Of a stretch of DNA of 64,000 nt, positions 52,539 through 64,000 are shown piece after piece. The first letter of the stretch is position 1, and every line of letters starts with the position of its first letter. The notes below the pieces were generated by a model, which saw only the letters and a list, made by a program, of their open reading frames with translations, was not told the DNA's origin and searched no databases. A program made the translations under genes and the position numbers. The DNA is from Acidimicrobiaceae bacterium (GTDB lineage: Bacteria > Actinomycetota > Acidimicrobiia > Acidimicrobiales > Aldehydirespiratoraceae): positions 16,505 to 80,504 of the forward strand of contig VYFQ01000016.1 in NCBI GenBank assembly GCA_009842325.1. Direction: 5' to 3'.

Positions 52539-53963
52539 GTGAGCCCGCTGATCTGGACCGAGTTCAGACCCGACCTCGGCAAGTTCGACGAGTTCCAGCA
52601 TTTCGAATCGGCCGGGGGCGGCCGGGTGCTGCAGAGCCTCTACCGGGGCCCTGAGGTGCCGATCCGCCTAATCATGACCGCGAACGGCGTCGAGTGGTCC
52701 GAGCTGCCACTCCCGGACGGCTTTCACGTGGCCGACCTCGGCTCCGATGCCGGCGCGAGTATCGATCTGGCCGGTGACCGCTGGGTGGCCTTCGGCTGGG
52801 ATGTGACTCGTGATCCCCATGAGAACGTCGGGCGCGAGGTCTGGTTCTCCGACGATCAGGGCTCAAGCTGGACCGAGGTGAACGTCGAGACACCGCAGAG
52901 GTCCGAGCCGCTACCACCGTATGCCATTGAGGAATCGGCCGTTCTTGAAGCGCTGGCCTGGGGCAGCTGTCTCGTCGTCGTCGTGCGGACTTCCACGAGA
53001 CTGGATCTGGAAGCTCTGCTCGCCGATCGCGGCTTGATGCCCACTGGGAAGTTGCTGAACTTCTGGGAGCCGTCACGCCACGGCTTCACGTTGACGTTTA
53101 TCGAGGAGTTCCCGTCGGAGGGCGAGTCCGTTCGGCCCAGTCGCGGTCGCTGGCGCCAGCACAAGCAGGATGTGTCGCACGAGGACCTGGGGCTCTCGAT
53201 CAGGCAGCAGGAGTTGCTGCAGAAGCGACGTGACACGGTCGTCAGGATCTATGCGGGAGACGGTCCCTCCCTGCCGATGACCGCCGAGTACGAACGATGG
53301 GTCTACAAGATCACCGGCACAGCCTCAGCCGAGGGCATCGTGCTGGCCACCCAGGGAGAATGGCAGGCCCTGCTCACGTCGGCCGACGGACTCGCATGGG
53401 ACGAGGACCCGTTGGACTCAGTGGAACTGTGGGGCGACGGTGGCGGCGACGGAGCGCTGTGGGCCGCGGCCCGCACTCGCAAGGGAATGCGATTCGATCG
53501 CATCCGCTACCAGGACGGCCAAGTACCAGTCGCACTCAAGGAGGGCGTCAAGAACCTCAGCAGCTTCGCGGCCGGACAAGCGGGGGTGGTAGCAGCTGGC
53601 CTGACGGGCCGGAGCGCCAGGAGGGAGCCAGGGCTCATGCAGACAAGGGTGCGAACGGCAGGACGCACCTACACCCACAGCGGCCACGGCGACTACCGGG
53701 CGGACGAGCTCTGGCTGGGCTGGTCCAGAGACGGTGACGCCTGGACCTGGCAGCCCGCGTCTGAGGCCTTCGGCGTCGATCCCCGCAGGAGGATCTCGGT
53801 AAGGCTGGCCGTCGGCAAGGACTTCCTTCTCGCCGAAGTGTCCGACTTCGGCATGATGTGGAAGATCACTCGGGACACCTACATCCCCTTCGACCCCAGC
53901 CCGACCGCCGATGGGCACGCGGTCGCAGCACGGCGGCGGTGGTTCATGGCCCGGGTGGGCTGA
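52539..53963 (+). CDS. hypothetical protein with Asp-box/BNR-like repeats (probable beta-propeller), no signal peptide
   Basis: 474 aa with a GTG start. Asp-box-like motifs SDDQGSSW, SADGLAW and SRDGDAW. GC looks lower than the surroundings. Confidence 0.6.
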   Translation: MSPLIWTEFRPDLGKFDEFQHFESAGGGRVLQSLYRGPEVPIRLIMTANGVEWSELPLPDGFHVADLGSDAGASIDLAGDRWVAFGWDVTRDPHENVGREVWFSDDQGSSWTEVNVETPQRSEPLPPYAIEESAVLEALAWGSCLVVVVRTSTRLDLEALLADRGLMPTGKLLNFWEPSRHGFTLTFIEEFPSEGESVRPSRGRWRQHKQDVSHEDLGLSIRQQELLQKRRDTVVRIYAGDGPSLPMTAEYERWVYKITGTASAEGIVLATQGEWQALLTSADGLAWDEDPLDSVELWGDGGGDGALWAAARTRKGMRFDRIRYQDGQVPVALKEGVKNLSSFAAGQAGVVAAGLTGRSARREPGLMQTRVRTAGRTYTHSGHGDYRADELWLGWSRDGDAWTWQPASEAFGVDPRRRISVRLAVGKDFLLAEVSDFGMMWKITRDTYIPFDPSPTADGHAVAARRRWFMARVG

Positions 53964-53985
53964 ACAACTGCCGGTGTCTGATGGT

Positions 53986-54011
53986 GTATACTCCATTTAT
54001 GCGGCGTATAC
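53986..54011 (+). promoter_or_regulatory. vapB2 promoter/operator: same architecture as copy 1
   Basis: It reads GGTGTATACTccatttATGcggcGTATACag. Hexamer, spacing and both palindromes are conserved although the coding DNA has diverged. Confidence 0.5.
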
Positions 54012-54223
54012 AGCTATACCTGGATGAAGACATCGACGACGCTCTGTCGGCTGCGGCTGCTCGGCTGGGGGTCTCGCGATCAGCGCTGGTGAGAAACGCC
54101 GTCAGGTCGGCTCTCGACGATGGGCCTGAGGCACTCACGGATCCTTTTGACGCTCTCGTGGGCAGCGTGGATGTTGAGCCGGACGACGATCTCGACGCGG
54201 TGATCTACGGGACCGAACTGTGA
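53999..54223 (+). CDS. vapB: type II antitoxin VapB (RHH type), copy 2
   Basis: 74 aa from the ATG at 53999 (MRRIQLYLDEDIDDALSAAAARLGVSRSALVRNAV). 59/74 residues are identical to copy 1 by manual alignment. Confidence 0.8.
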   Translation: MRRIQLYLDEDIDDALSAAAARLGVSRSALVRNAVRSALDDGPEALTDPFDALVGSVDVEPDDDLDAVIYGTEL

Positions 54224-54615
54224 GGTTCGTCGACACGTCCTTCTGGATCGGTCTGCTCGTTCCCGCAGATCGCCGTCACCCCGATGCCGTGCGATTGTGG
54301 CGCGACGGGCGCGGACCCCTCCGGACCTCCAATCTGGTGGCAGGAGAGACTTGGACATGGTTGAAGCGTCGCGCCGGCCATACCCACTCCCTCAGCTTCA
54401 TCACCATGCTTCGCCAGTCGCCGCGTGTGTCGGTAGCAGTCGTCGACTCGGCCATAGACGAGCGGGCATGGGAGTGGCTTGCTCGCCATGACGAGCGGCA
54501 CTACTCCTACGTCGACGCCACCAGCTTCGAGATCATGCGGCGCGAGCGGATCACCGAAGCGCTCGCGTTCGACGGCGACTTCAGCGCGGCCGGCTTCATA
54601 GAAGTTCGGCCCTGA
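54220..54615 (+). CDS. vapC: type II toxin VapC (PIN domain), copy 2
   Basis: 131 aa. 117/131 residues are identical to copy 1 by manual alignment. 4-nt overlap with vapB. Confidence 0.85.
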   Translation: MRFVDTSFWIGLLVPADRRHPDAVRLWRDGRGPLRTSNLVAGETWTWLKRRAGHTHSLSFITMLRQSPRVSVAVVDSAIDERAWEWLARHDERHYSYVDATSFEIMRRERITEALAFDGDFSAAGFIEVRP

Positions 54616-54636: not shown

Positions 54637-54891
54637 ATGGCCGGAGCGGTGGTGATGGTGATCGTGCTGGTGGTGGTGTTCCCGGTGGTGGTGCTGATCG
54701 GCAGCGGGATCCTGGCGGCGGCACTGGGCAGCTTCCTGAAGGTTGACTCCGACCTGGCCAACCGAGGCGACGACGGCCCCAACGAGTATCTGGAACTGGC
54801 CCGCAAGGAGGCCGAGACCGGCTACCCGCACCGGCCCGAGCCGCCGTCGCTGCGTTCTAAGCTCGAGTCGAAGATCCGGTCGGCCAGATAG
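54637..54891 (+). CDS. hypothetical small membrane protein (84 aa)
   Basis: One long N-terminal hydrophobic segment and a charged tail. It overlaps the convergent 54857..56467 gene by 35 nt. Coding status is uncertain. Confidence 0.4.
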   Translation: MAGAVVMVIVLVVVFPVVVLIGSGILAAALGSFLKVDSDLANRGDDGPNEYLELARKEAETGYPHRPEPPSLRSKLESKIRSAR

Positions 54892-56467
54892 GCGGGCAGC
54901 CGCGGTCGATCCACACCGCGGCGGCCACCGCGACGAACACGGCGTCGCTGCCGTTGACAGGCTCCGAACCGTCGTCCAGCACGTCGATCCTCACGGCCGG
55001 CATGTTGGCCGCGCTCACGATGCCGAAGGATCGGACGGTCAGGTCGTGGACGTGTCCGTCGGGATCCACCCCGAGTGACTCGCTGGTCACCCACGAATAG
55101 GCCATGTGGGCCGCACCCGTGCAGTAGGACCGCAACACGGTTTCGTCGAGAGTCCGGCCGGCCCGAACTTGCACCGCGATCGTCCCATCCGGCCCGACCG
55201 CAGCCGTAGCTGATCCGCCATCGGGCCCCGCGATCCAACCCGGCTCGCCCCGGGCCGCGGCCAGCAGCACCGCAGCCTCGGCCCAGCCCGCCCCCCGTAC
55301 CAGCGACGAGGTGGGCGGCCCCGGCACGTCGATCTCGGTGACGACTAGGCCGGGCGCCCATTCCTGGATCACGGCCGCAATGCCCGGTGTTCGCGCCACG
55401 ACGATCTCACCGGTTCCGTCAGGCCGTACTCCCGCCGCGATCGGTGGCCGCTTGGGGCCGAACTCGACGGTGTCGGGGCGGGACCACAGCACCCTCACGT
55501 GCCGACCGTGACGGCTGGCGAGCACACGGGCGGCCTCAGCCACCGGAGAGTGGAGCTTCCCGCCGAAGGCTCCGCCGTTGCCGAGCGGCGAGGCCGGCTC
55601 ACCGTCGGGCTGGCACCAGGCGGCGTCGGTCTCCAGGTAGCCGGGCTCGGTCCAGCTGGTGCGCAGGGTGACGGCCCAGTCGCCCGGAGGGACCTCCAGC
55701 GGCGGCTCCCAGCTGGCGGTGGTGCGCCGGCCCGGAACCTGCCCGGCGAGTCTTCGCGCCTCGGCGGCGGTTTCCGCCACGACCCAGCCGTGCTCGTCAG
55801 CAGCGTCGCAGTCCGGGCCGGCCCGCACAGCCACGAGGGCTCCAGCCGGGACGGTGTCGTCGGCGAATCCACCCAACCCGAGGGACACATGGGGCCCGGT
55901 CGACTGCGGTGTCCGCCCCTCGATCGTCGCCCGGAGGTCGGCCGCGGCTCTCTGATCAGAATCCAGGTCGGTAGCGGCGTCGGCGACTCCGGAAACGAGC
56001 CCGGGGTAGGCCTGCCAAGCGTCGAGAATGGGCTGCCAACCGGTACACCGGCACAGATGGGCGGCCAGAGCCCGGGCCGCGACGCGGCGATCACTGTGAT
56101 CGGCGCCCCTGTCGTGCAGCCCGGCGAAACGACAGATGATCCCGGGCGTGCAGAACCCGCACTGGCTGGCTCCGGTGGCCGCGAAGGCCCGAGCCCAGAC
56201 GTCGCGCACATCTGCGTCGAGCCCTTCGAGGGTGGTGATGGCCCGGCCCTGCACTCGACGGGCCGGGGTAACGCATGCCACCCTGGGCTGCCCGTCCACC
56301 AGCACGGTGCAGCAGCCGCACTGGCCCTGGGGGCTGCACCCGTCCTTCACCGAGCGCACCCCGAGCTGCTCTCGCAGCACGTCCAGCAGCGTGAGGCCCT
56401 CATCGGCCACCGTCACCACCGCGCCGTCGACGGTCAGTTCGAAGGGATCAGCGGCAGCGGCAACCAT
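54857..56467 (-). CDS. [2Fe-2S]-binding protein fused to a short xanthine-dehydrogenase/aldehyde-oxidase-like domain
   Basis: ATG at 56467. The N-terminus carries both small-subunit clusters (CSPQGQCGCCTV ... QCGFCTPG ... CRCTGW). The ~380-aa C-terminus resembles the distal part of MoCo-binding large subunits (GGAFGGK ... VRGAGWAEA ... ). The listed 703-aa ORF has a spurious extension across erpA. Confidence 0.65.
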   Translation of the reverse strand: MVAAAADPFELTVDGAVVTVADEGLTLLDVLREQLGVRSVKDGCSPQGQCGCCTVLVDGQPRVACVTPARRVQGRAITTLEGLDADVRDVWARAFAATGASQCGFCTPGIICRFAGLHDRGADHSDRRVAARALAAHLCRCTGWQPILDAWQAYPGLVSGVADAATDLDSDQRAAADLRATIEGRTPQSTGPHVSLGLGGFADDTVPAGALVAVRAGPDCDAADEHGWVVAETAAEARRLAGQVPGRRTTASWEPPLEVPPGDWAVTLRTSWTEPGYLETDAAWCQPDGEPASPLGNGGAFGGKLHSPVAEAARVLASRHGRHVRVLWSRPDTVEFGPKRPPIAAGVRPDGTGEIVVARTPGIAAVIQEWAPGLVVTEIDVPGPPTSSLVRGAGWAEAAVLLAAARGEPGWIAGPDGGSATAAVGPDGTIAVQVRAGRTLDETVLRSYCTGAAHMAYSWVTSESLGVDPDGHVHDLTVRSFGIVSAANMPAVRIDVLDDGSEPVNGSDAVFVAVAAAVWIDRGCPPIWPTGSSTRA

Positions 56468-56541
56468 TGAACCGCAGGTTAGATCGAGGCGCGCCAAGCA
56501 CCGGCCGCTGGAACCCCCGGCCGGCCCGGGGAATGAGAGCG

Positions 56542-58201: not shown

Positions 58202-59002
58202 CTAATTCGCCGAAGTTCGGGGGTCCTCCAACTCGACCGTCAATCCGGGGCCGAGTTCTTGGTCGACACGGTGCTGGAACATCGGGACCAGCATCGACGA
58301 CGGCATCACGCATTCGGCGCAGGCCTCGTCGGGAATGTGGAGCCGGAAGGTGATGCGGTTCCCGGACTGCTCGGCGGTCAGGTCGGCGCGGTCAGCCCGG
58401 AGGGCCACAGCCAACGACTCCACCACCGCGTCGAGGCTCCCCGGTTCGGCACCAGCGGCGGCGGCGGGGCCGGCCTCGCCGTGCAGCAGCAGGCTCTCGA
58501 CCGCGGGTGTGACCGCGTCGGCCAGAGCCGTCACCTGCTCCTCCGAGAGGCTGCCGATCGGATGCGGGACGGTGGCGAACGGGTAGTCGGCGAAGCCCTG
58601 CAGCTCGGCCATGACCTTGCCGGTGGTCGTGAAGGGCTCGGTCACGATGGCGGCCGCGGGCAGGCCGAGCCCCTCGAACCGGACGGCGTCGAGCACACTG
58701 CCCGACGAGCAACTGCCTCAATCGCCGATGGCGGCGATGATGGCGGTGGCGTCGGCGGCCAGCATCTCGACGTCCTCCGGTGCGGCCGGGAAGCTCGAGT
58801 CGGGCTTGGTCACCAGGATCGTGTCCTGGATCGGATGCCTGGCCTTGAGGTTCTCCGCCACCCGCTGGAGGATCTCGCGGCCGCGGGCCTTGCCGTTGTT
58901 GACCAGACCGAGCACAGCCCCGTCGAGGTTGGCAGGACGGGCTGCCAGCTCCCGGCCTGCGCCGGCCGGAGCCAGAGTCGGATCGATGAGAGTGACCGTC
59001 AT
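58202..59002 (-). CDS. candidate UGSC-motif selenoprotein (TGA at 58718-58720 read as Sec), 266 aa
   Basis: ORFs 58718..59305 (real start ATG 59002, MTVTLIDP...) and 58202..58696 share one frame. Only one TGA separates them. The junction reads AAIGD-U-GSCSSGSVLDAV. A SECIS-like hairpin starts 11 nt after the TGA. The downstream piece has no SD or ATG. The ATGA overlap with the upstream gene supports the 59002 start. Confidence 0.6.
58687..58707 (-). promoter_or_regulatory. SECIS-like mRNA hairpin downstream of the in-frame UGA
   Basis: The mRNA reads UGA-GGCAGUUGCU-[CGUCGGGC]-AGUGU-[GCUCGACG]. The stem is 8 bp (one G.U) with a 5-nt loop containing G and U. The stem starts 11 nt after the UGA. 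Confidence 0.45.
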
Positions 59003-60081
59003 GGGATGATTATCTCCTGGGTTACAAGCGGGACGCTGCGGTCCCGGCTCCACGTCGGGAAGAACGCCGAGTGCCCGCCGGCGTCGCCGCCGCCGACCAT
59101 CAGCGCGATGTCGTCCGGGCCGGTCCCACGCCGCACCAGGATGTCCTCGTCGCCGGGATGCACGGTCGGGTCCGACCGCATCCACCACACCGGGTCGAAC
59201 CCTTCCACGAAGCCGCCCGGCTCCACCTTGCCACCCCGCTTGACGTCGGCGAAGGAGCGGGCCGAGTGCTCGAACAGGTACCCCTGAACCTGGGACCGGC
59301 TCCACCCGGAGGCCGAGATCTTGCGGGCGTGCTCGGGCGCGAACACGATCAGCGAGCGGCCCGAGCTGAGCGAACCGAAGGCCGCCATCGCATCGGCGAA
59401 CGTCCCGAGCAGCTCGGACACCTCCGAGGAGGCGTGGTTGACGATGTTGTGGCCCGACTCGGCGGCCATGATCGTGACCGTGCTCTGCGACGGCTCATAT
59501 CCCCGGGAGACGTGGAAAGGCTCCCAGGGACACGTCGCCTCGTCCTCGGCGAAGCAGACGGCGTACTTGCCGGGCCAGCCCTGGGTGCTCTTGTCCAGCG
59601 CTCCGGGTATGGCCGCGAGGCAGTTGCGCAGCACCAGCCGGACGGTGCGGCCGATGGTGGCGTTGGGTCTGAACCCAGGCCCGAAGAGGTTCTCCTTGTA
59701 GTGGATCCCGATCCCTTCGCGGATCGGCCCGTTGACCGCGACAAGCACGGCCGCCCCGCCGGTGCTGGCCGCCACAGCGTGCAACGCGAACTCCGGGGCG
59801 CTCATGGCCTGCAGCGCGGCGCCCACCACCGGGAAGTACTCGGGCAAGCAGCCGGCCATGACGGCGTTGACGGCAGCCTTGCGGGCAGTGACGGCCATCC
59901 CTCGCCACGGGTCGTCGAGCAGCACCTCGTCGGCAGCCCAGACCCCGCCGGCCAGCATGGCGGCCACCAGCGGCTCGGTGGGCGGGACCACGGGCAGGCC
60001 GTCGGTCCAGCCGGCGGTGTAGCAGGCCTCGATGGCCTCCCACGGATCGTCGACCTGCTGGTCGCCATGAACAGGGATCAT
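58999..60081 (-). CDS. conserved-looking hypothetical protein (360 aa), partner of the UGSC-motif gene
   Basis: ATG at 60081 with GGAGGGG upstream. Normal soluble-protein composition. The stop overlaps the downstream ATG (ATGA). No family recognised. Confidence 0.7.
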   Translation of the reverse strand: MIPVHGDQQVDDPWEAIEACYTAGWTDGLPVVPPTEPLVAAMLAGGVWAADEVLLDDPWRGMAVTARKAAVNAVMAGCLPEYFPVVGAALQAMSAPEFALHAVAASTGGAAVLVAVNGPIREGIGIHYKENLFGPGFRPNATIGRTVRLVLRNCLAAIPGALDKSTQGWPGKYAVCFAEDEATCPWEPFHVSRGYEPSQSTVTIMAAESGHNIVNHASSEVSELLGTFADAMAAFGSLSSGRSLIVFAPEHARKISASGWSRSQVQGYLFEHSARSFADVKRGGKVEPGGFVEGFDPVWWMRSDPTVHPGDEDILVRRGTGPDDIALMVGGGDAGGHSAFFPTWSRDRSVPLVTQEIIIP

Positions 60082-60153
60082 CCAACCCCTCCGTCGTAGA
60101 CCGCGCCGCTCACGATGACCGCAAACTATAGGTGGGGGCTGCGATTCAGCGGG

Positions 60154-61458
60154 CTAGTTGCAGAGGCCTTCTTCGCTTACGCCCCGGTGGCTGTCGCAGA
60201 TCGTCGTGCTCTCGACGGACTTGAGGGTGAACGAACCGGAATCGGAATCCTGCTGGGCGAAGACCTGCAGCCGGAAGCCGCGGACAGCGTCGTCGGGCAG
60301 ACCCAACACGTCGACGGTGATCTCGGCGAGATCGCCGCTGACGGGGGCGCCCGACACGACGACGCGAGACGGCGGATCGTCGGAGGCCACCGCCCCGGCG
60401 ACGATCCGGGCCAGCTCGGCCAGCGTCGATGCGGCGGGCGTCTCGCCCAGGACGGCGACAGTCTCGGCAGTGGCGTCAGAGGTAGCTCCCAACGGCGACA
60501 GGAAGGCGCTGCTGGCCCATCCGACCGCTTCGGCCATGCGGATCTCGTGCCAGATGGTGGTGGGGAGCTTGCGGGTGTTGCCGGTGGCGATCACGCCGCG
60601 ATTGAGATCGAGGGTGGCAATGAGTGCGTCGGAGTCGGCCTCGCGTACGTAGACGACCGGCTCGCTGCCCACGTTCATCACGTTGTCCAGCCGGGCGACG
60701 ATCTCTCCGGCGGGCACGTCACGCACGTTCAGCACGCTGTCGTGGGAGACACCCACCACCGCGAGCGCCGCGCCAGCCGGCGGGCCGAACTCGTAAGGCT
60801 CGCCGGGAAGGGACACAGCCGGCTCGGGCGCGCCGTCGGCTCCGTCCGTCGACGCTTCCCCGGACTCGTCGCCGCCGGTTTCGGAGGCGTCGGCGTCCTC
60901 GGTGTCCGTGGCCGCGTCCGTGTCGTCGGCACCTGTCTCGGCGGCAGGCTCCGCCGTCTCGTCGGCCTCCTCGGTGGCGCCGGCTGCGTCGGTCTCTGTG
61001 GCGCCCGTCGTCTCAGCCTCGGTCTCCTCGTCCGATGTGTCCGCCGGCTGCGTACCACCATCGGCCGCAGCGGCAGCCTGGGCCGCGGCGAGGGCCTCCA
61101 CCGCCGCGGCGGCCTGAGCCGCGGCCGCCTCGGCCGCAGCCGCAGCCTGCTGGGCCATCACGACCGCCTCCTGGGCCACGACAGCCGCCTCGTCGGCCTT
61201 GGCCGCCGACGCGGCGGACATGATGGCCGCGTCCTCGGCACTGGCCTGAGCCGCGGCAGCAGCGGTTCGCGCCTCCGCAAGGTCGGCGGTGTCGACGTCG
61301 TCGGCCGCGTCGTCGCTGCCGGAGTCGGCCACGAACGCGGCCACAAGCGCCACCACGGCGACCAGCAGCGCCACCAAGGCCAGCAACAGGGCGCGCCTGG
61401 CTACCGCCAAACTGAGCGACATCCCCATCACGGGCCTCGAGCCGTGGTCAGCTTCCAT
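60154..61458 (-). CDS. membrane-anchored protein with Ala-rich and acidic Thr/Asp/Glu-rich low-complexity stalk and C-terminal globular domain
   Basis: N-terminal TM helix (ALLLALVALLVAVVALVAAFVA). About 165 aa of low complexity follow. Then a ~220-aa domain ends with two Cys (TICDSHRGVSEEGLCN). Confidence 0.65.
   Translation of the reverse strand: MEADHGSRPVMGMSLSLAVARRALLLALVALLVAVVALVAAFVADSGSDDAADDVDTADLAEARTAAAAAQASAEDAAIMSAASAAKADEAAVVAQEAVVMAQQAAAAAEAAAAQAAAAVEALAAAQAAAAADGGTQPADTSDEETEAETTGATETDAAGATEEADETAEPAAETGADDTDAATDTEDADASETGGDESGEASTDGADGAPEPAVSLPGEPYEFGPPAGAALAVVGVSHDSVLNVRDVPAGEIVARLDNVMNVGSEPVVYVREADSDALIATLDLNRGVIATGNTRKLPTTIWHEIRMAEAVGWASSAFLSPLGATSDATAETVAVLGETPAASTLAELARIVAGAVASDDPPSRVVVSGAPVSGDLAEITVDVLGLPDDAVRGFRLQVFAQQDSDSGSFTLKSVESTTICDSHRGVSEEGLCN
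60823..61323 (-). repeat. Ala-rich then Thr/Asp/Glu-rich low-complexity coding tract (residues ~46-212)
   Basis: AAAAAQASAEDAA...AAAEAAAAQAAAAVEALAAAQAAAAA is followed by TSDEETEAETTGATETDAAGATEEADETAE... Confidence 0.8.
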
Positions 61459-61532: not shown

Positions 61533-62570
61533 CTACGGAACTAGGTCCAACGCTCGCCCGAGGGTGTCAAGGCGTTCATCGGTGGTGTCGCCGGCCGGGT
61601 ACAGGCGCACGGTGTCGACCCCGGCGGCAGCCCACCCGGCCAAACGGTCCCGCACCATCTCGACGGTGCCGATGAGGGTGGTGGCCAGCACCATCTCGTC
61701 GGGGATCGCCGCGGCCGCGCCCGGCCTGTCGCCGGCCAGCCACAGACGCTGCGACTCGGCCGCAACATCGGCGAAGCCCTGGCGGGCGTAGGCAGAGTTG
61801 TAGAAGTTGGAGCGGCCCGAGCCCATGCCGCCGAGACTGAAGGCCAGCCCGGCCCGGCGGGTGTCGATCATTGCGGCCAGCTCGGCCTCGTCACGGGCGA
61901 AGGCGACCTCGGCCCCCTGGCAGATGTCGATGTCGTCGAGGGTCCGGCCGGCCCGGGCCGCGCCCGCTCGCAGATGGCGAAAATAGGCGTCCTCGGCGCC
62001 CTCTGGCACGAAGCTGGTGCCGAGCCAGCCGTCGGCCCGCTCGCCGGTCAACTCCAGCATCCTCGGCAGCATCGAGGCCAGGTAGACGGCCGGGGCCGTG
62101 GAGGACCGGATCGACAGGCGCAGCGACTTGCCCTCCCCGCCGGCCAGGGGAAGCCGTAGATGACGGCCCGAATAGGCGATGCGCTCACCGGCGAAGGCCT
62201 GGGCGATCACGTCGAGCGTCTCGGCCATGCGGCCCACCGGATCGGCGAAGCCCACTCCGTGCAGACCTTCCATCACCTGCGGTCCCGACACTCCCAGCCC
62301 CAGCACGAACCGCCCCTGCGACAGCTCGTTGAGGGTCAGCGCGGTCTGGGCCGTCATCACCGCCGAGCGGACCCCGACCTGGAACACGGACGCGCCCAGC
62401 GTGACCCGTTCGGTCCGGGCCGCGAGGTAGCCCAGCGGGGAGGCCGCGTCGGACCCCCACGCCTCGGCGACCCACACCGCATCCACGCCCAGGGCCTCGG
62501 CCCCGGTCACGAAGTCGACCGACTCGGGCCACGGCGCCGAATCCGCAGTGAGCTGGACCGAGGTCCTCAC
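61533..62570 (-). CDS. LLM-class (luciferase-like) flavin/F420-dependent oxidoreductase
   Basis: 345 aa with a typical LLM layout (GVDAVWVAEAWGSDA ... GRFVLGLGVSGPQVMEG ...). Confidence 0.8.
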   Translation of the reverse strand: MRTSVQLTADSAPWPESVDFVTGAEALGVDAVWVAEAWGSDAASPLGYLAARTERVTLGASVFQVGVRSAVMTAQTALTLNELSQGRFVLGLGVSGPQVMEGLHGVGFADPVGRMAETLDVIAQAFAGERIAYSGRHLRLPLAGGEGKSLRLSIRSSTAPAVYLASMLPRMLELTGERADGWLGTSFVPEGAEDAYFRHLRAGAARAGRTLDDIDICQGAEVAFARDEAELAAMIDTRRAGLAFSLGGMGSGRSNFYNSAYARQGFADVAAESQRLWLAGDRPGAAAAIPDEMVLATTLIGTVEMVRDRLAGWAAAGVDTVRLYPAGDTTDERLDTLGRALDLVP

Positions 62571-62583
62571 GGGCCGCTCACGC

Positions 62584-63750
62584 TTAAGGGCCGGCGGCCT
62601 GCTCGATGTGGGCCTTGATCCCCTCCACCACCCGCTGCATGTTGGCTCGGTGCTCGGCCATGCGACGGTCGATGATGCGAGGCTCCAGGTCGGGGCGGGC
62701 TGAGATGATCTCGTCGAGCCCGGAGGGGCCGGGACCGAGGATGCCCCGGAAGCGCAGCCGGGTTCCGCCCACTACGGGCTCGAGTTCGAAGCGCCAGCGG
62801 GCGCCGGGATTGCCGATGTCGCTGGTGCACCAGCCGAACGCGACCTGCTCGGTGAACACGTCCACGAAGCACTGGGCCTCCCAGTCCCCCCGGGCCGGGT
62901 GATGATTGCGGCCCACGAAGCAGGCGCCCAGCGCCGGGCCGTCACCGCCGCCGGTCCACTCGGCCCCCTGGAACTCCTCGGAGAAGCGCGCCGGCAGGTT
63001 GATGTCGGTCACCTCGGCCCAGACGGCGGCCGGCTCGGCCCGGATGTCCACTTCCACGACGGTGCCGGGACCGTCGGCGATGCGCACCGGATCGCTGGGG
63101 CCCCGCTCGTAAGTGCGGGCGTAGCCGTCGAAGTAGGCGATCTCGCGGGCCGGATGCCGCCGGGCCGGCTTGAAGTCGGTGCCGACGGTCCAGGCCACCG
63201 GGAACATGGCGATCTCGGTCACATCGTCGGGGATGCCGAGCAATTCCTTGATTTCGGGCGCCTTGGCCAGACCGGCAGTGGTCCAAGCCGTGCCCAGGCC
63301 TCTGGCCCGCAGGGCCAAGCAGAAGCTCCAGCCGCTCTGGATCACCGAATCGAACAGGCCGGGACGCCCGCTGCCGTCGTGGCGGCCGAGGATCACCGGG
63401 ATGACGATGACCGGCACCTCGCCGAGGTGCTCGGCCAGATGCCCCGCGGAGAGCATGGCCCGCTCCCGCGGGTCCCCGGTGCCGGCCAGACGGTCGCGGG
63501 CCTCGATCATGCGGTTGCCGATCACGTCGCGATAGAGGTCGGCCAACCTCTGCTTGAGTTCCGGATCACGCACGATTAGCCAGCGCCGGCTGCCCTGGTT
63601 GCCACCGGTGGGAGCCTGCTCGGCGACGTCGATGCAGTCCAGGATGATCTCGTCGTCCACGTCTCGCTCAAGGTCGAGGCGCCGTCGCACGGCACGGGTG
63701 GTGGTGAGCACCTCGTCCACGGTTGCGGTTGTGCCGGGGTCAATCTCCAT
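62584..63750 (-). CDS. nitroreductase family / SRPBCC (START-like) fusion protein
   Basis: ATG at 63750 with GAGGA upstream. The N-terminal ~230 aa is nitroreductase-like (TTRAVRRRLDLERDVDDEII ... APTGGNQGSRRWLIV). The C-terminal ~150 aa is SRPBCC-like (VEVDIRAEPAAVWAEVTDINLPARFSEE...). Confidence 0.7.
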   Translation of the reverse strand: MEIDPGTTATVDEVLTTTRAVRRRLDLERDVDDEIILDCIDVAEQAPTGGNQGSRRWLIVRDPELKQRLADLYRDVIGNRMIEARDRLAGTGDPRERAMLSAGHLAEHLGEVPVIVIPVILGRHDGSGRPGLFDSVIQSGWSFCLALRARGLGTAWTTAGLAKAPEIKELLGIPDDVTEIAMFPVAWTVGTDFKPARRHPAREIAYFDGYARTYERGPSDPVRIADGPGTVVEVDIRAEPAAVWAEVTDINLPARFSEEFQGAEWTGGGDGPALGACFVGRNHHPARGDWEAQCFVDVFTEQVAFGWCTSDIGNPGARWRFELEPVVGGTRLRFRGILGPGPSGLDEIISARPDLEPRIIDRRMAEHRANMQRVVEGIKAHIEQAAGP

Positions 63751-64000
63751 CTGAGTCCTCACTGCTCTGCCGACTGTCGCGGATCTCACGCACCTCGTTC
63801 ACGTCCCGGACATCCGGACCGCCCGCACCGAACCCGCCGGGACCGCCGGAGCTGTAGCCGAAGCCGAAACCGCCTCGCCCGCCGGGTCCCGCCGACCATC
63901 CCCCGACGGTGATCTTCTTCGAGAAGTGGCGCATCAGCAGCGACCTGACCAGCACACGGGTGGGAAAGAACAGAAGCAGCAGCCCGACCGCGTCGGTGAT
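63740..64000 (-). CDS. fxsA: FxsA family membrane protein, 5' end outside window
   Basis: The frame is open to the window edge. It reads ITDAVGLLLLFFPTRVLVRSLL, matching the FxsA TD..G..LL.P.TR motif. A Gly-rich acidic tail follows. Confidence 0.6.
   Translation of the reverse strand: MTDAVGLLLLFFPTRVLVRSLLMRHFSKKITVGGWSAGPGGRGGFGFGYSSGGPGGFGAGGPDVRDVNEVREIRDSRQSSEDSDGD

What the first reader, a model, noticed from the sequence alone, without database searches (positions are those of the whole stretch)
58202..60081. Translationally coupled two-gene module of unknown function (360-aa protein + UGSC-motif protein) beside Fe-S cluster genes
The 360-aa gene (58999..60081) has a strong SD (GGAGGGG). 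Its stop overlaps the ATG of the UGSC-motif gene (ATGA). A TATAGT hexamer (minus strand, 60125-60130) lies about 44 nt upstream, so the pair may have its own promoter.
I recognise no family for the 360-aa protein. It has conserved-looking segments such as GWTDGLPVVPPTEP, AASTGGAAVLVAVNGP, NATIGRTVRLVLRN and TIMAAESGHNIVNH.
The pair sits immediately next to apbC/mrp, erpA and a [2Fe-2S]/XDH-like fusion. The UGSC protein itself carries a redox-type U/CxxC motif and a NifU-C-like CxxC tail. A thiol/selenol redox or metal-cluster handling role for the pair is a reasonable hypothesis. It is unproven.
Basis: inference. Interest (0 to 1): 0.7.

Follow-up and report, generated by a model that had tools for sequence, protein, structure and literature searches.

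The report
Selenoprotein UGSC and its obligate partner
The orphan selenoprotein UGSC, abundant in oceans and soils, is almost always encoded next to, or fused with, an unannotated 360-residue protein family, which suggests the two form a selenium-dependent redox enzyme whose substrate is still unknown.

Summary
A 360-aa gene (58999..60081, minus) overlaps by ATGA a UGSC-family gene (58202..59002) that carries an in-frame TGA (58718..58720). A conserved SECIS-like hairpin follows the TGA.

The pairing is not chance. In 77 of 79 genome loci from about ten phyla, the 360-aa family is followed directly by UGSC. The two exceptions are contig ends. Starting from UGSC instead, 68 of 80 metagenome loci carry the partner, and the other 12 are truncated. 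At least a quarter of representative family members are UGSC fusions. Other members are fused to TlpA/AhpC-like, thioredoxin-reductase-like or ferredoxin-thioredoxin-reductase modules.

The 360-aa family is large (more than 6000 clusters at 50% identity). It has no Pfam or NCBIfam model and no significant PDB fold match.

Best reading: a two-component selenol/thiol-dependent oxidoreductase. UGSC is the dedicated redox partner, with a flavodoxin-like fold and U-x-x-C at a helix N-cap. The 360-aa protein is the catalytic subunit.

The Fe-S neighbours (apbC, erpA) flank the pair in only 8 of 79 loci, so they are lineage synteny. The TATAGT promoter is not conserved. The CxxC tail is weakly NifU-like and is a mobile third module. 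The substrate is unknown.

The parts
58999..60081 (-). Gene for the 360-aa partner protein, from an unannotated family. Superfamily-conserved residues: D27, C78, N140, R145, C176, E179, W186, H251.
   Evidence: ORF and translation. No Pfam or NCBIfam family. At least 7995 homologous clusters, all unnamed or 'hypothetical'. 6151 clusters at 50% identity. AF2 model pLDDT 85, pTM 0.85. No PDB fold match with E<1e-3. Conservation over 148 representative domains.
60086..60092 (-). Shine-Dalgarno-like GGAGGGG, 4 nt before the ATG of the 360-aa gene.
   Evidence: Read directly from the sequence.
58999..59002 (-). ATGA overlap: stop codon of the 360-aa gene and start codon of the UGSC gene (translational coupling).
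   Evidence: Sequence. In the 77 related genome loci, nearly all UGSC matches begin from -1 to about 100 nt after the end of the partner match; a few start several hundred nt later.
58202..59002 (-). UGSC-family selenoprotein gene, 266 residues including Sec95. It has a UGSC domain (residues 5-172) and a C-terminal CxxC tail.
   Evidence: PF24696 E=1.9e-50 across the TGA. NF041046 scores 127.1 bits against a cutoff of 125.
58718..58720 (-). In-frame TGA read as selenocysteine (U95 of the D-U-G-S-C motif).
   Evidence: TGA at the homologous codon in 76 of 77 genome loci and 77 of 80 metagenome loci; the other 3 metagenome loci have TGC. Protein conservation continues on both sides of the codon. 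selA and selB are present in the source contig.
58687..58707 (-). SECIS-like hairpin CGUCGGGCA-GUG-UGCUCGACG. It starts 13 nt after the U of UGA and has an invariant G-U in the apical loop.
   Evidence: 90.9% of cells are paired, against at most 48% when the partner columns are slid. Covariation at pair 19:29 (UA/GU/AU).
58217..58456 (-). C-terminal tail of about 80 residues with C228-x-x-C231. It is a mobile third module with weak NifU-like similarity.
   Evidence: The tail is on UGSC only in Acidimicrobiia and in L020, L025 and L037. The same module is fused to the N- or C-terminus of partner-family proteins (P0135, P0160, P0188, P0207, P0219, P0261). NifU similarity is weak.
60125..60130 (-). 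TATAGT hexamer in the 72-nt spacer upstream. Probably not a dedicated conserved promoter.
   Evidence: The sigma-70 scan found no promoter-like site in the region. The hexamer is absent in L001, whose partner protein is 96% identical, and the spacer is not alignable in other relatives.

Best explanation
The two genes encode the two subunits of one selenol/thiol-dependent oxidoreductase.

UGSC is the dedicated redox partner. It has a flavodoxin-like alpha/beta domain, and its Sec95-x-x-Cys98 sits at the N-cap of a helix. It cycles between selenol/thiol and selenenylsulfide, and the general disulfide-reducing machinery probably re-reduces it.

The 360-aa protein is the constant 'business end' that binds and converts the unknown substrate. 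It has a pocket of superfamily-invariant polar residues (D27, N140, R145, E179, H251) and one or two conserved cysteines (C78, C176). UGSC would reduce these cysteines or form a mixed Se-S bond with them.

The Sec codon is decoded through a SECIS hairpin 13 nt downstream. The ATGA overlap keeps the two subunits in step. In this lineage a small CxxC tail on UGSC adds a third relay module.

Shown: the module is obligate, Sec is used, the hairpin is conserved, the fusions exist, and the UGSC fold is flavodoxin-like. Inferred: the direction of electron flow, the roles of C78 and C176, and the enzyme activity.
For: Obligate pairing from both sides:
- 77 of 79 genome loci have UGSC directly downstream of the partner. 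They come from Acidimicrobiia, Methylomirabilota, Acidobacteriota, Alpha- and Gammaproteobacteria, Chloroflexota, Entotheonella and others. The 2 exceptions are contig ends.
- 68 of 80 metagenome loci anchored on UGSC carry the partner on the same strand. All 12 misses lack flanking DNA on one side.

Gene fusions in both orders:
- Of the 150 best representatives, 27 are UGSC-partner fusions whose called ORF starts just after the U codon, 11 are full-length Cys or degenerate fusions, and at least 1 is partner-UGSC cut at the U.
- The partner domain is also fused to an AhpC/TSA-type CxxC domain (P0163), a Pyr_redox_2 thioredoxin-reductase-like module (P0178) and an FeThRed_B module (P0194). The reductant modules change while the 360-aa domain stays.

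Sec usage and decoding:
- TGA in 76/77 and 77/80 loci.
- Conserved hairpin with covariation.
- selA and selB in the source contig.

Structure:
- The model of the natural fusion P0185 has pLDDT 82 and pTM 0.81. The motif Cys sits at a helix N-cap, and the UGSC half matches flavodoxin-like folds.
- C78 is conserved at 95% and C176 at 88%. No representative lacks both.

No third conserved neighbour exists.
Against: - No substrate or activity can be named. Neighbouring genes give no consistent pathway.
- C78 and C176 are each dispensable in some members (17 and 7 of 148), so they cannot form an obligatory disulfide.
- I could not read coordinates of the models. Proximity of Sec95 to C78 or C176 is therefore untested.
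- The weak, consistent Foldseek hits of the partner are to non-redox Fe-S hydro-lyases (class I fumarate hydratase; E 8e-3, TM 0.24).
- The direction of electron flow is inferred from domain architecture only.
Confidence: 0.55

Rival explanations
1. Roles reversed. UGSC is the catalytic selenoenzyme, for example a peroxidase or reductase acting on a small oxidant through Sec95. The 360-aa protein is its dedicated recycling reductase or scaffold.
For: Sec is usually the catalytic residue of selenoenzymes, and 96-99% of UGSC genes keep TGA. The partner keeps one or two cysteines that could re-reduce a selenenylsulfide.
Against: The partner has no nucleotide, flavin or Fe-S binding signature. It is itself fused to bona fide reductase modules (Pyr_redox_2, FeThRed_B), which would be redundant if it were the reductase. 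UGSC can be replaced by a TlpA/AhpC-like CxxC domain, or degenerate to a Cys-less form (P0143, P0218), while the 360-aa domain stays intact.
Confidence: 0.2
2. A glycine/proline-reductase-like mechanism. The 360-aa protein activates a small organic substrate. Sec95 attacks it to give a covalent Se-adduct, and C98 (with a third Cys in the U-G-S-C-S-T-C clade) resolves the adduct. The result is reductive bond cleavage.
For: The proteobacterial clade carries U-x-x-C-x-x-C. From my own knowledge, not checked here, this is the motif type reported for GrdB. Sec strongly outnumbers Cys, as in the GOS counts of 255 Sec to 21 Cys (PMC2398784). The system has two components, a substrate-specific subunit plus a selenoprotein. 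Flanking genes are often for small-molecule or acyl-CoA catabolism, but inconsistently.
Against: UGSC has no sequence similarity to the GRDB family PF07355, and the partner has none to any glycine- or proline-reductase subunit family, in Pfam at E<=1. No pyruvoyl-type cleavage motif was identified. The hosts are mostly aerobes.
Confidence: 0.12
3. One reading: the pair handles metal or Fe-S clusters, and is linked to the adjacent apbC/erpA genes.
For: apbC/mrp, erpA and a [2Fe-2S]/XDH-like gene lie next to the pair in the window. The tail has a weak NifU-like CxxC. One family member is fused to the Fe-S-containing FTR catalytic chain. Weak fold hits go to Fe-S hydro-lyases.
Against: The Fe-S genes flank the pair in only 8 of 79 loci, all close relatives. 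They do not recur in 82 dereplicated contexts. Most UGSC proteins lack the tail. The partner has only two conserved Cys, too few for a cubane site of its own.
Confidence: 0.08

Closest known systems
UGSC-containing selenoprotein family (Pfam PF24696, NCBIfam NF041046; Zhang & Gladyshev GOS selenoproteome, PMC2398784)
   Same: The downstream gene is a member: HMM hits are above the cutoffs, the U-G-S-C motif is present, TGA encodes Sec, and a SECIS-like hairpin follows.
   Different: The literature treats it as a stand-alone selenoprotein of unknown function with a 'likely Trx-like fold'. Here it is one half of an obligate two-gene or fused module. The model of a fused homologue gives a flavodoxin-like fold, not a thioredoxin fold. 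This copy also carries an extra CxxC tail.
Thioredoxin-type redox partners fused or linked to their client enzymes (AhpF-AhpC, NTRC, Trx-Msr fusions)
   Same: A small U/CxxC module at a helix N-cap is encoded next to, or fused with, a client enzyme. The client can swap it for other CxxC or reductase modules.
   Different: The redox module has a flavodoxin-like fold and uses Sec in about 96-99% of cases. The client domain belongs to no known Trx-dependent enzyme family.
Glycine reductase / D-proline reductase selenoprotein systems (GrdA, GrdB, PrdB)
   Same: Multi-subunit reductases in which a Sec-x-x-Cys(-x-x-Cys) selenoprotein works with a substrate-specific partner. Sec is strongly preferred over Cys. 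PrdB and UGSC are among the most abundant families in the same marine selenoproteome surveys.
   Different: No detectable sequence relationship. No GrdA, GrdC or GrdD-type genes nearby. The hosts are mainly aerobic heterotrophs.
Class I (Fe-S) fumarate hydratase / cyclic amide hydrolase 'Toblerone' folds
   Same: These are the only recurrent Foldseek hits for the 360-aa model, and they cover most of its length.
   Different: E >= 8e-3, TM 0.16-0.27, rmsd 12-17 A. There is no three-Cys cluster site. This is not evidence of homology.
NifU C-terminal / Nfu domain (PF01106)
   Same: The tail shares the pattern hydrophobic strand - CxxC - helix and an 'ADG(A/G)D' motif. It aligns in register with 2jnv. 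2 of 14 tail homologues hit PF01106.
   Different: The window's own tail gives no Pfam hit even at E<=10, and the profile E-value against PDB is 1.3. Within this system the tail behaves as a shuffled accessory module.

Membership tests
UGSC family (seleno)protein (PF24696 / NF041046) | HMM match above the curated cutoff | tested here: met
   PF24696 171.8 bits (cutoff 25), residues 5-172. NF041046 127.1 bits (cutoff 125).
UGSC family (seleno)protein (PF24696 / NF041046) | U(C)-G-S-C motif with Sec encoded by in-frame TGA | tested here: met
   D-U-G-S-C at residues 94-98, with TGA at 58718..58720. TGA at the same codon in 76/77 and 77/80 related loci.
Bacterial selenoprotein gene | SECIS stem-loop shortly downstream of UGA with G/U in the apical loop | tested here: met
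   9-bp hairpin at +14..+34 with loop G-U-N. 90.9% of cells paired against at most 48% for slid controls. Covariation at 19:29. No Rfam family reached its threshold.
Bacterial selenoprotein gene | Sec machinery present in the genome (selA, selB, selC, selD) | tested here: inconclusive
   selA (372 bits, cutoff 268) and selB (302 bits, cutoff 242) lie 4-7 kb upstream in the source contig. No tRNA-Sec was found in the window or in L081. selD was not seen in the DNA held.
Thioredoxin-fold oxidoreductase (proposed for UGSC in PMC2398784) | Thioredoxin fold | tested here: not met
   The best structural neighbours of the UGSC half of the fusion model are flavodoxin-like: lumazine synthase, flavodoxin, PurE (TM by target 0.43-0.57). 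No Trx-fold protein is among the top 50. This was tested on a homologue (P0185), not on the window protein.
Thioredoxin-fold oxidoreductase (proposed for UGSC in PMC2398784) | Redox CxxC/UxxC at the N-terminus of a helix | tested here: met
   Cys98 of P0185 (equivalent to U95) lies directly before helix 99-114 of the model.
Any curated protein family for the 360-aa protein (Pfam-A, NCBIfam) | HMM match | tested here: not met
   No NCBIfam hit at E<=1, and only a 12.6-bit SsdA_C chance hit in Pfam. Precomputed Pfam is '-' for all 120 listed homologues.
Class I fumarate hydratase / Fe-S hydro-lyase | Significant fold match and three Cys ligands for a [4Fe-4S] cluster | tested here: not met
   Best Foldseek E 8e-3, TM 0.24. 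Only two Cys are conserved across the superfamily.
Glycine/proline reductase component B (GRDB PF07355) | Sequence similarity to GrdB/PrdB, or to GrdE/PrdA for the partner | tested here: not met
   No such Pfam hit at E<=1 for either protein. Profile-profile and structural comparison with Grd/Prd proteins could not be run.
NifU C-terminal domain (PF01106) for the tail | HMM match with CxxC in register | tested here: inconclusive
   The window tail has no hit at E<=10. 2 of 14 tail homologues hit PF01106 (best E 0.0021). The profile against 2jnv gives E = 1.3, in register.
Fe-S cluster biogenesis operon (apbC/erpA-linked) | Conserved linkage to Fe-S assembly genes | tested here: not met
   8 of 79 loci only, all close relatives. 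The genes do not recur in the neighbour census.

The most novel reading that the evidence does not exclude
The pair is a previously unrecognised, globally abundant selenium-dependent reductase of aerobic marine and soil bacteria. The partner would be a new enzyme fold that activates a small organic or inorganic substrate. Sec95 of UGSC would then attack that substrate covalently, as in glycine or proline reductase. On this reading, the reason many of these genomes keep the selenocysteine machinery at all is this one enzyme.
Probability: 0.2. Interest if true: 0.85.

Novelty: new variant of a known kind. Interest (0 to 1): 0.66.

Why it matters
UGSC has been listed since 2005-2008 as one of the most abundant prokaryotic selenoprotein families in ocean and freshwater metagenomes. 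The 2026 review I read still calls its function uncharacterised.

Three results turn this orphan into a testable system:
- UGSC essentially never occurs without one particular partner domain.
- That domain is a very large family with no Pfam or NCBIfam model and no solved relative.
- The domain is wired by fusion to thioredoxin-type, thioredoxin-reductase-type and FTR-type modules.

The two proteins can now be co-expressed, trapped as mixed Se-S intermediates and screened for substrates.

There is also an annotation problem. Gene callers split UGSC into two ORFs, and they truncate dozens of UGSC-partner fusion selenoproteins at the UGA.

Tried and rejected
- **Family and structure searches for the 360-aa protein.** Pfam, NCBIfam, a PDB sequence profile and a PDB fold search gave nothing significant.
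- **PDB sequence search for UGSC.** Only chance-level hits.
- **Rfam over the whole window.** No family, so no curated SECIS or riboswitch. No tRNA in the window or in the source locus.
- **A third conserved gene.** Naive ORF clustering was noisy because of antisense ORFs in high-GC DNA. A Pfam census of 100 upstream and 117 downstream ORFs from 82 dereplicated loci found no family in more than 4 loci.
- **Contexts of distant paralogues** (tandem P0124, AhpC-fusion P0163). Uninformative.
- **Fe-S linkage.** Rejected as lineage synteny.
- **selA/selB proximity.** Also lineage-specific, with one distant exception, L043.
- **Dedicated promoter.** Rejected.
- **'Unknown_1' in the 2008 GOS paper.** I tried to find out whether this UGSC fusion partner is the same domain. 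The figure is held only as an image and the sequence file is truncated, so I cannot tell.
- **C78-C176 as an obligatory disulfide.** Rejected, because each Cys is missing in some members.
- **Inter-residue distances.** The models could not be read, so the Sec-to-Cys geometry stays untested.
Full report
**1. Observation**

The minus strand of 58202..60081 holds two tightly coupled reading frames.

- The first frame (58999..60081, 360 aa) starts at the first ATG of its open frame. GGAGGGG lies 4 nt upstream (60086..60092).
- Its TGA stop overlaps the ATG of the second frame as ATGA (58999..59002).
- The second frame (58202..59002) is continuous only if the TGA at 58718..58720 is read as an amino acid. 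It then gives ...IAAIGD-U-GSCSS....
- With Cys in place of U, it matches Pfam PF24696 'UGSC' over residues 5-172 (E 1.9e-50). It also passes the NCBIfam equivalog NF041046, 'UGSC family (seleno)protein'.

**2. Is the UGA really Sec?**

- In 76 of 77 related genome loci the homologous codon is TGA, with protein conservation on both sides.
- In an independent set of 80 metagenome loci, found with a pattern that did not include this codon, 77 have TGA and 3 have TGC. This agrees with the published count of 255 Sec to 21 Cys forms in GOS (PMC2398784).
- Thirteen nucleotides after the U of UGA lies a hairpin, CGUCGGGCA-GUG-UGCUCGACG (58687..58707). Its apical G-U is invariant.
- Across 28 diverse loci, 90.9% of cells in this hairpin are paired, against at most 48% when the partner columns are slid. 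Pair 19:29 switches between U-A, G-U and A-U. These switches go together with amino-acid changes (Gly/Cys and Leu/His), so the protein sequence bends to keep the hairpin.
- The source contig carries selA and selB 4-7 kb upstream, just outside the window. Both score above their NCBIfam cutoffs.
- No tRNA-Sec was found in the DNA held.

**3. Is the pairing conserved?**

*From the partner side.* A scan of one genome per GTDB species returned 79 loci. They come from Acidimicrobiia, Methylomirabilota/Rokubacteria, Thermoanaerobaculia, Binatia, Thermoleophilia, Thermodesulfobacteriota, Alpha- and Gammaproteobacteria, Chloroflexota, Entotheonella and others.
- 77 loci have a UGSC gene immediately downstream on the same strand.
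- The other two loci end within about 120 nt of the partner gene.

*From the UGSC side.* Of 80 metagenome loci anchored on the post-U half of UGSC, 68 carry the partner on the same strand.
- 66 have it upstream. Most gaps equal the N-terminal half of UGSC (about 240-480 nt). Four loci have a gap of about 1.1 kb.
- 2 have it downstream.
- All 12 misses lack flanking DNA on one side.

**4. Fusions**

A profile search of 1.84 billion cluster representatives found 6151 relatives at E<=1e-3. Among the best 150:
- 27 begin with the post-U half of UGSC. These are Sec-containing UGSC-partner fusions that gene callers truncated at the UGA.
- 11 are full-length fusions with CGSC or a degenerate motif.
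- At least one is partner-UGSC, ending exactly at ...AIGD before the U codon.
- 7 are tandem duplications of the partner domain.
- 5 carry some other N-terminal domain.
- 6 carry the CxxC tail module.

The Pfam scan identified three other fusion partners:
- P0163: an AhpC/TSA-type CxxC domain.
- P0178: a Pyr_redox_2 (thioredoxin-reductase-like) module.
- P0194: UGSC, the partner domain and a ferredoxin-thioredoxin-reductase catalytic chain.

So the 360-aa domain is the constant element, and thiol/selenol reductant modules are swapped around it.

**5. What the proteins look like**

*The partner.*
- It has no Pfam or NCBIfam family and no PDB sequence relative.
- Its AF2 model is confident (pLDDT 85, pTM 0.85), yet no PDB fold match reaches E<1e-3.
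- The only recurrent hits are class I fumarate hydratases and cyclic amide hydrolases at TM 0.16-0.27.
- Over 148 representative domains, the best conserved residues are D27, C78, G118, N140, R145, C176, E179, W186 and H251.
- Both cysteines are present in 124 of 148 domains. One is missing in 24, and no domain lacks both.
- A conserved loop (residues 161-172, LDKSTQGWPGK) is modelled with low confidence. It may be a lid or an interface.

*UGSC.* The natural fusion P0185 models with pLDDT 82 and pTM 0.81, and its linker is disordered.
- The UGSC half resembles flavodoxin-like alpha/beta/alpha proteins such as lumazine synthase, flavodoxin and PurE. It does not resemble thioredoxin.
- The motif Cys (equivalent to U95) sits at the N-cap of a helix, the usual position of a redox CxxC.

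**6. Context**

- apbC/mrp, erpA and the Fer2/XDH-like gene flank the pair in only 8 of 79 loci, all close relatives.
- selA/selB proximity is likewise lineage-specific.
- A Pfam census of the two nearest ORFs on each side, in 82 dereplicated loci, finds no family in more than 4 loci.
- The module is therefore self-contained, and the Fe-S neighbourhood does not inform its function.
- The sigma-70 scan found no promoter-like site around TATAGT. The hexamer is already lost in L001, whose partner protein is 96% identical.

**7. The tail**

- Residues about 183-262 of this UGSC (C228-x-x-C231) are present only in Acidimicrobiia and three other loci.
- The same module is fused to the N- or C-terminus of partner-family proteins elsewhere.
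- It is weakly NifU-like. 2 of 14 tail sequences hit PF01106, and the tail profile aligns in register with 2jnv at E 1.3. The window's own tail gives no Pfam hit.
- It is best described as an optional third CxxC relay module. Whether it binds an Fe-S cluster is open.

**8. Interpretation**

The best-supported model is a two-component selenol/thiol-dependent oxidoreductase. UGSC is the dedicated redox partner and the 360-aa protein is the catalytic, substrate-binding subunit. The substrate is unknown.

Three rivals remain:
- Reversed roles: UGSC is catalytic and the partner recycles it.
- A glycine-reductase-like covalent Se mechanism. The proteobacterial clade has U-x-x-C-x-x-C.

The literature I could search describes UGSC only as an abundant selenoprotein of unknown function. 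It mentions a 'UGSC/Unknown_1' fusion, but I could not identify that fusion partner.

**9. Verdict**

The module is real, ancient and widespread. Its selenoprotein half is a known family. Its partner half is a large, unannotated and structurally unplaced family. The obligate coupling of the two gives a concrete experimental handle on a long-standing orphan. The redox interpretation is supported. The Fe-S and promoter arguments are not.

Noticed in passing
outside the window; L080/L081 2665-5767 (about 4-7 kb beyond window position 64000): selA and selB, both above their NCBIfam cutoffs, lie close to the UGSC pair in the source contig and in close relatives. One distant proteobacterial locus (L043) also has selA within 5 kb.
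   Followed up: partly
window 58202-59002 and public gene calls (L080 11080-11364 and 11386-11880): Public annotation splits the UGSC selenoprotein into two ORFs of 94 and 164 aa at the UGA. Dozens of 410-460-aa 'N-terminally extended' partner-family proteins are really UGSC-partner fusion selenoproteins truncated at the UGA.
   Followed up: yes
window 58687-58711 and alignment A2: Amino-acid changes just after the motif track compensatory changes in the SECIS stem (S-S-G-S-V-L in Acidimicrobiia, S-T-C-S-L-H in Proteobacteria). The proteobacterial clade thereby gains a U-x-x-C-x-x-C motif.
   Followed up: partly
window 60154-61458 (-): A 434-aa protein lies directly upstream. It has a hydrophobic N-terminus and a long Ala/Asp/Glu/Thr-rich low-complexity region. 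Its C-terminal domain is conserved only in close relatives. It has no Pfam family.
   Followed up: partly
window 53858-54615 (+): Two small overlapping ORFs look like a VapBC-type toxin-antitoxin pair. The source-contig annotation gives RHH_1 and PIN domains.
   Followed up: no
window 54857-56470 (-): A 536-aa protein has an N-terminal [2Fe-2S] Fer2/Fer2_2 module and only weak, partial molybdopterin-binding-domain hits. It is much shorter than a normal XDH or aldehyde oxidase large subunit.
   Followed up: partly
window 62584-63789 (-) and 61533-62570 (-): A nitroreductase fused to a SRPBCC/polyketide-cyclase-like domain lies next to an F420-dependent LLM oxidoreductase. LLM genes recur near the pair in 19 of 79 loci by ORF clustering, but this is a very large paralogous family.
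   Followed up: partly
L021 6001-7445: In one Candidatus Poriferisodalis genome the partner match stops at residue 284 and the UGSC match starts at residue 17, overlapping it. This looks like a deletion, pseudogenisation or assembly error.
   Followed up: no
P0163, P0220, P0259, P0269 (AhpC/TSA-like fusions): The linker between the Trx-fold domain and the partner domain carries a conserved P-G-C-[GAS]-[SA] motif that resembles the D-U-G-S-C motif of UGSC.
   Followed up: no
L126, L152, L158, L161: In four metagenome loci the partner gene lies about 1.1 kb upstream of the UGSC anchor, not about 0.3 kb. Either an extra gene or an extra domain sits between them.
   Followed up: no
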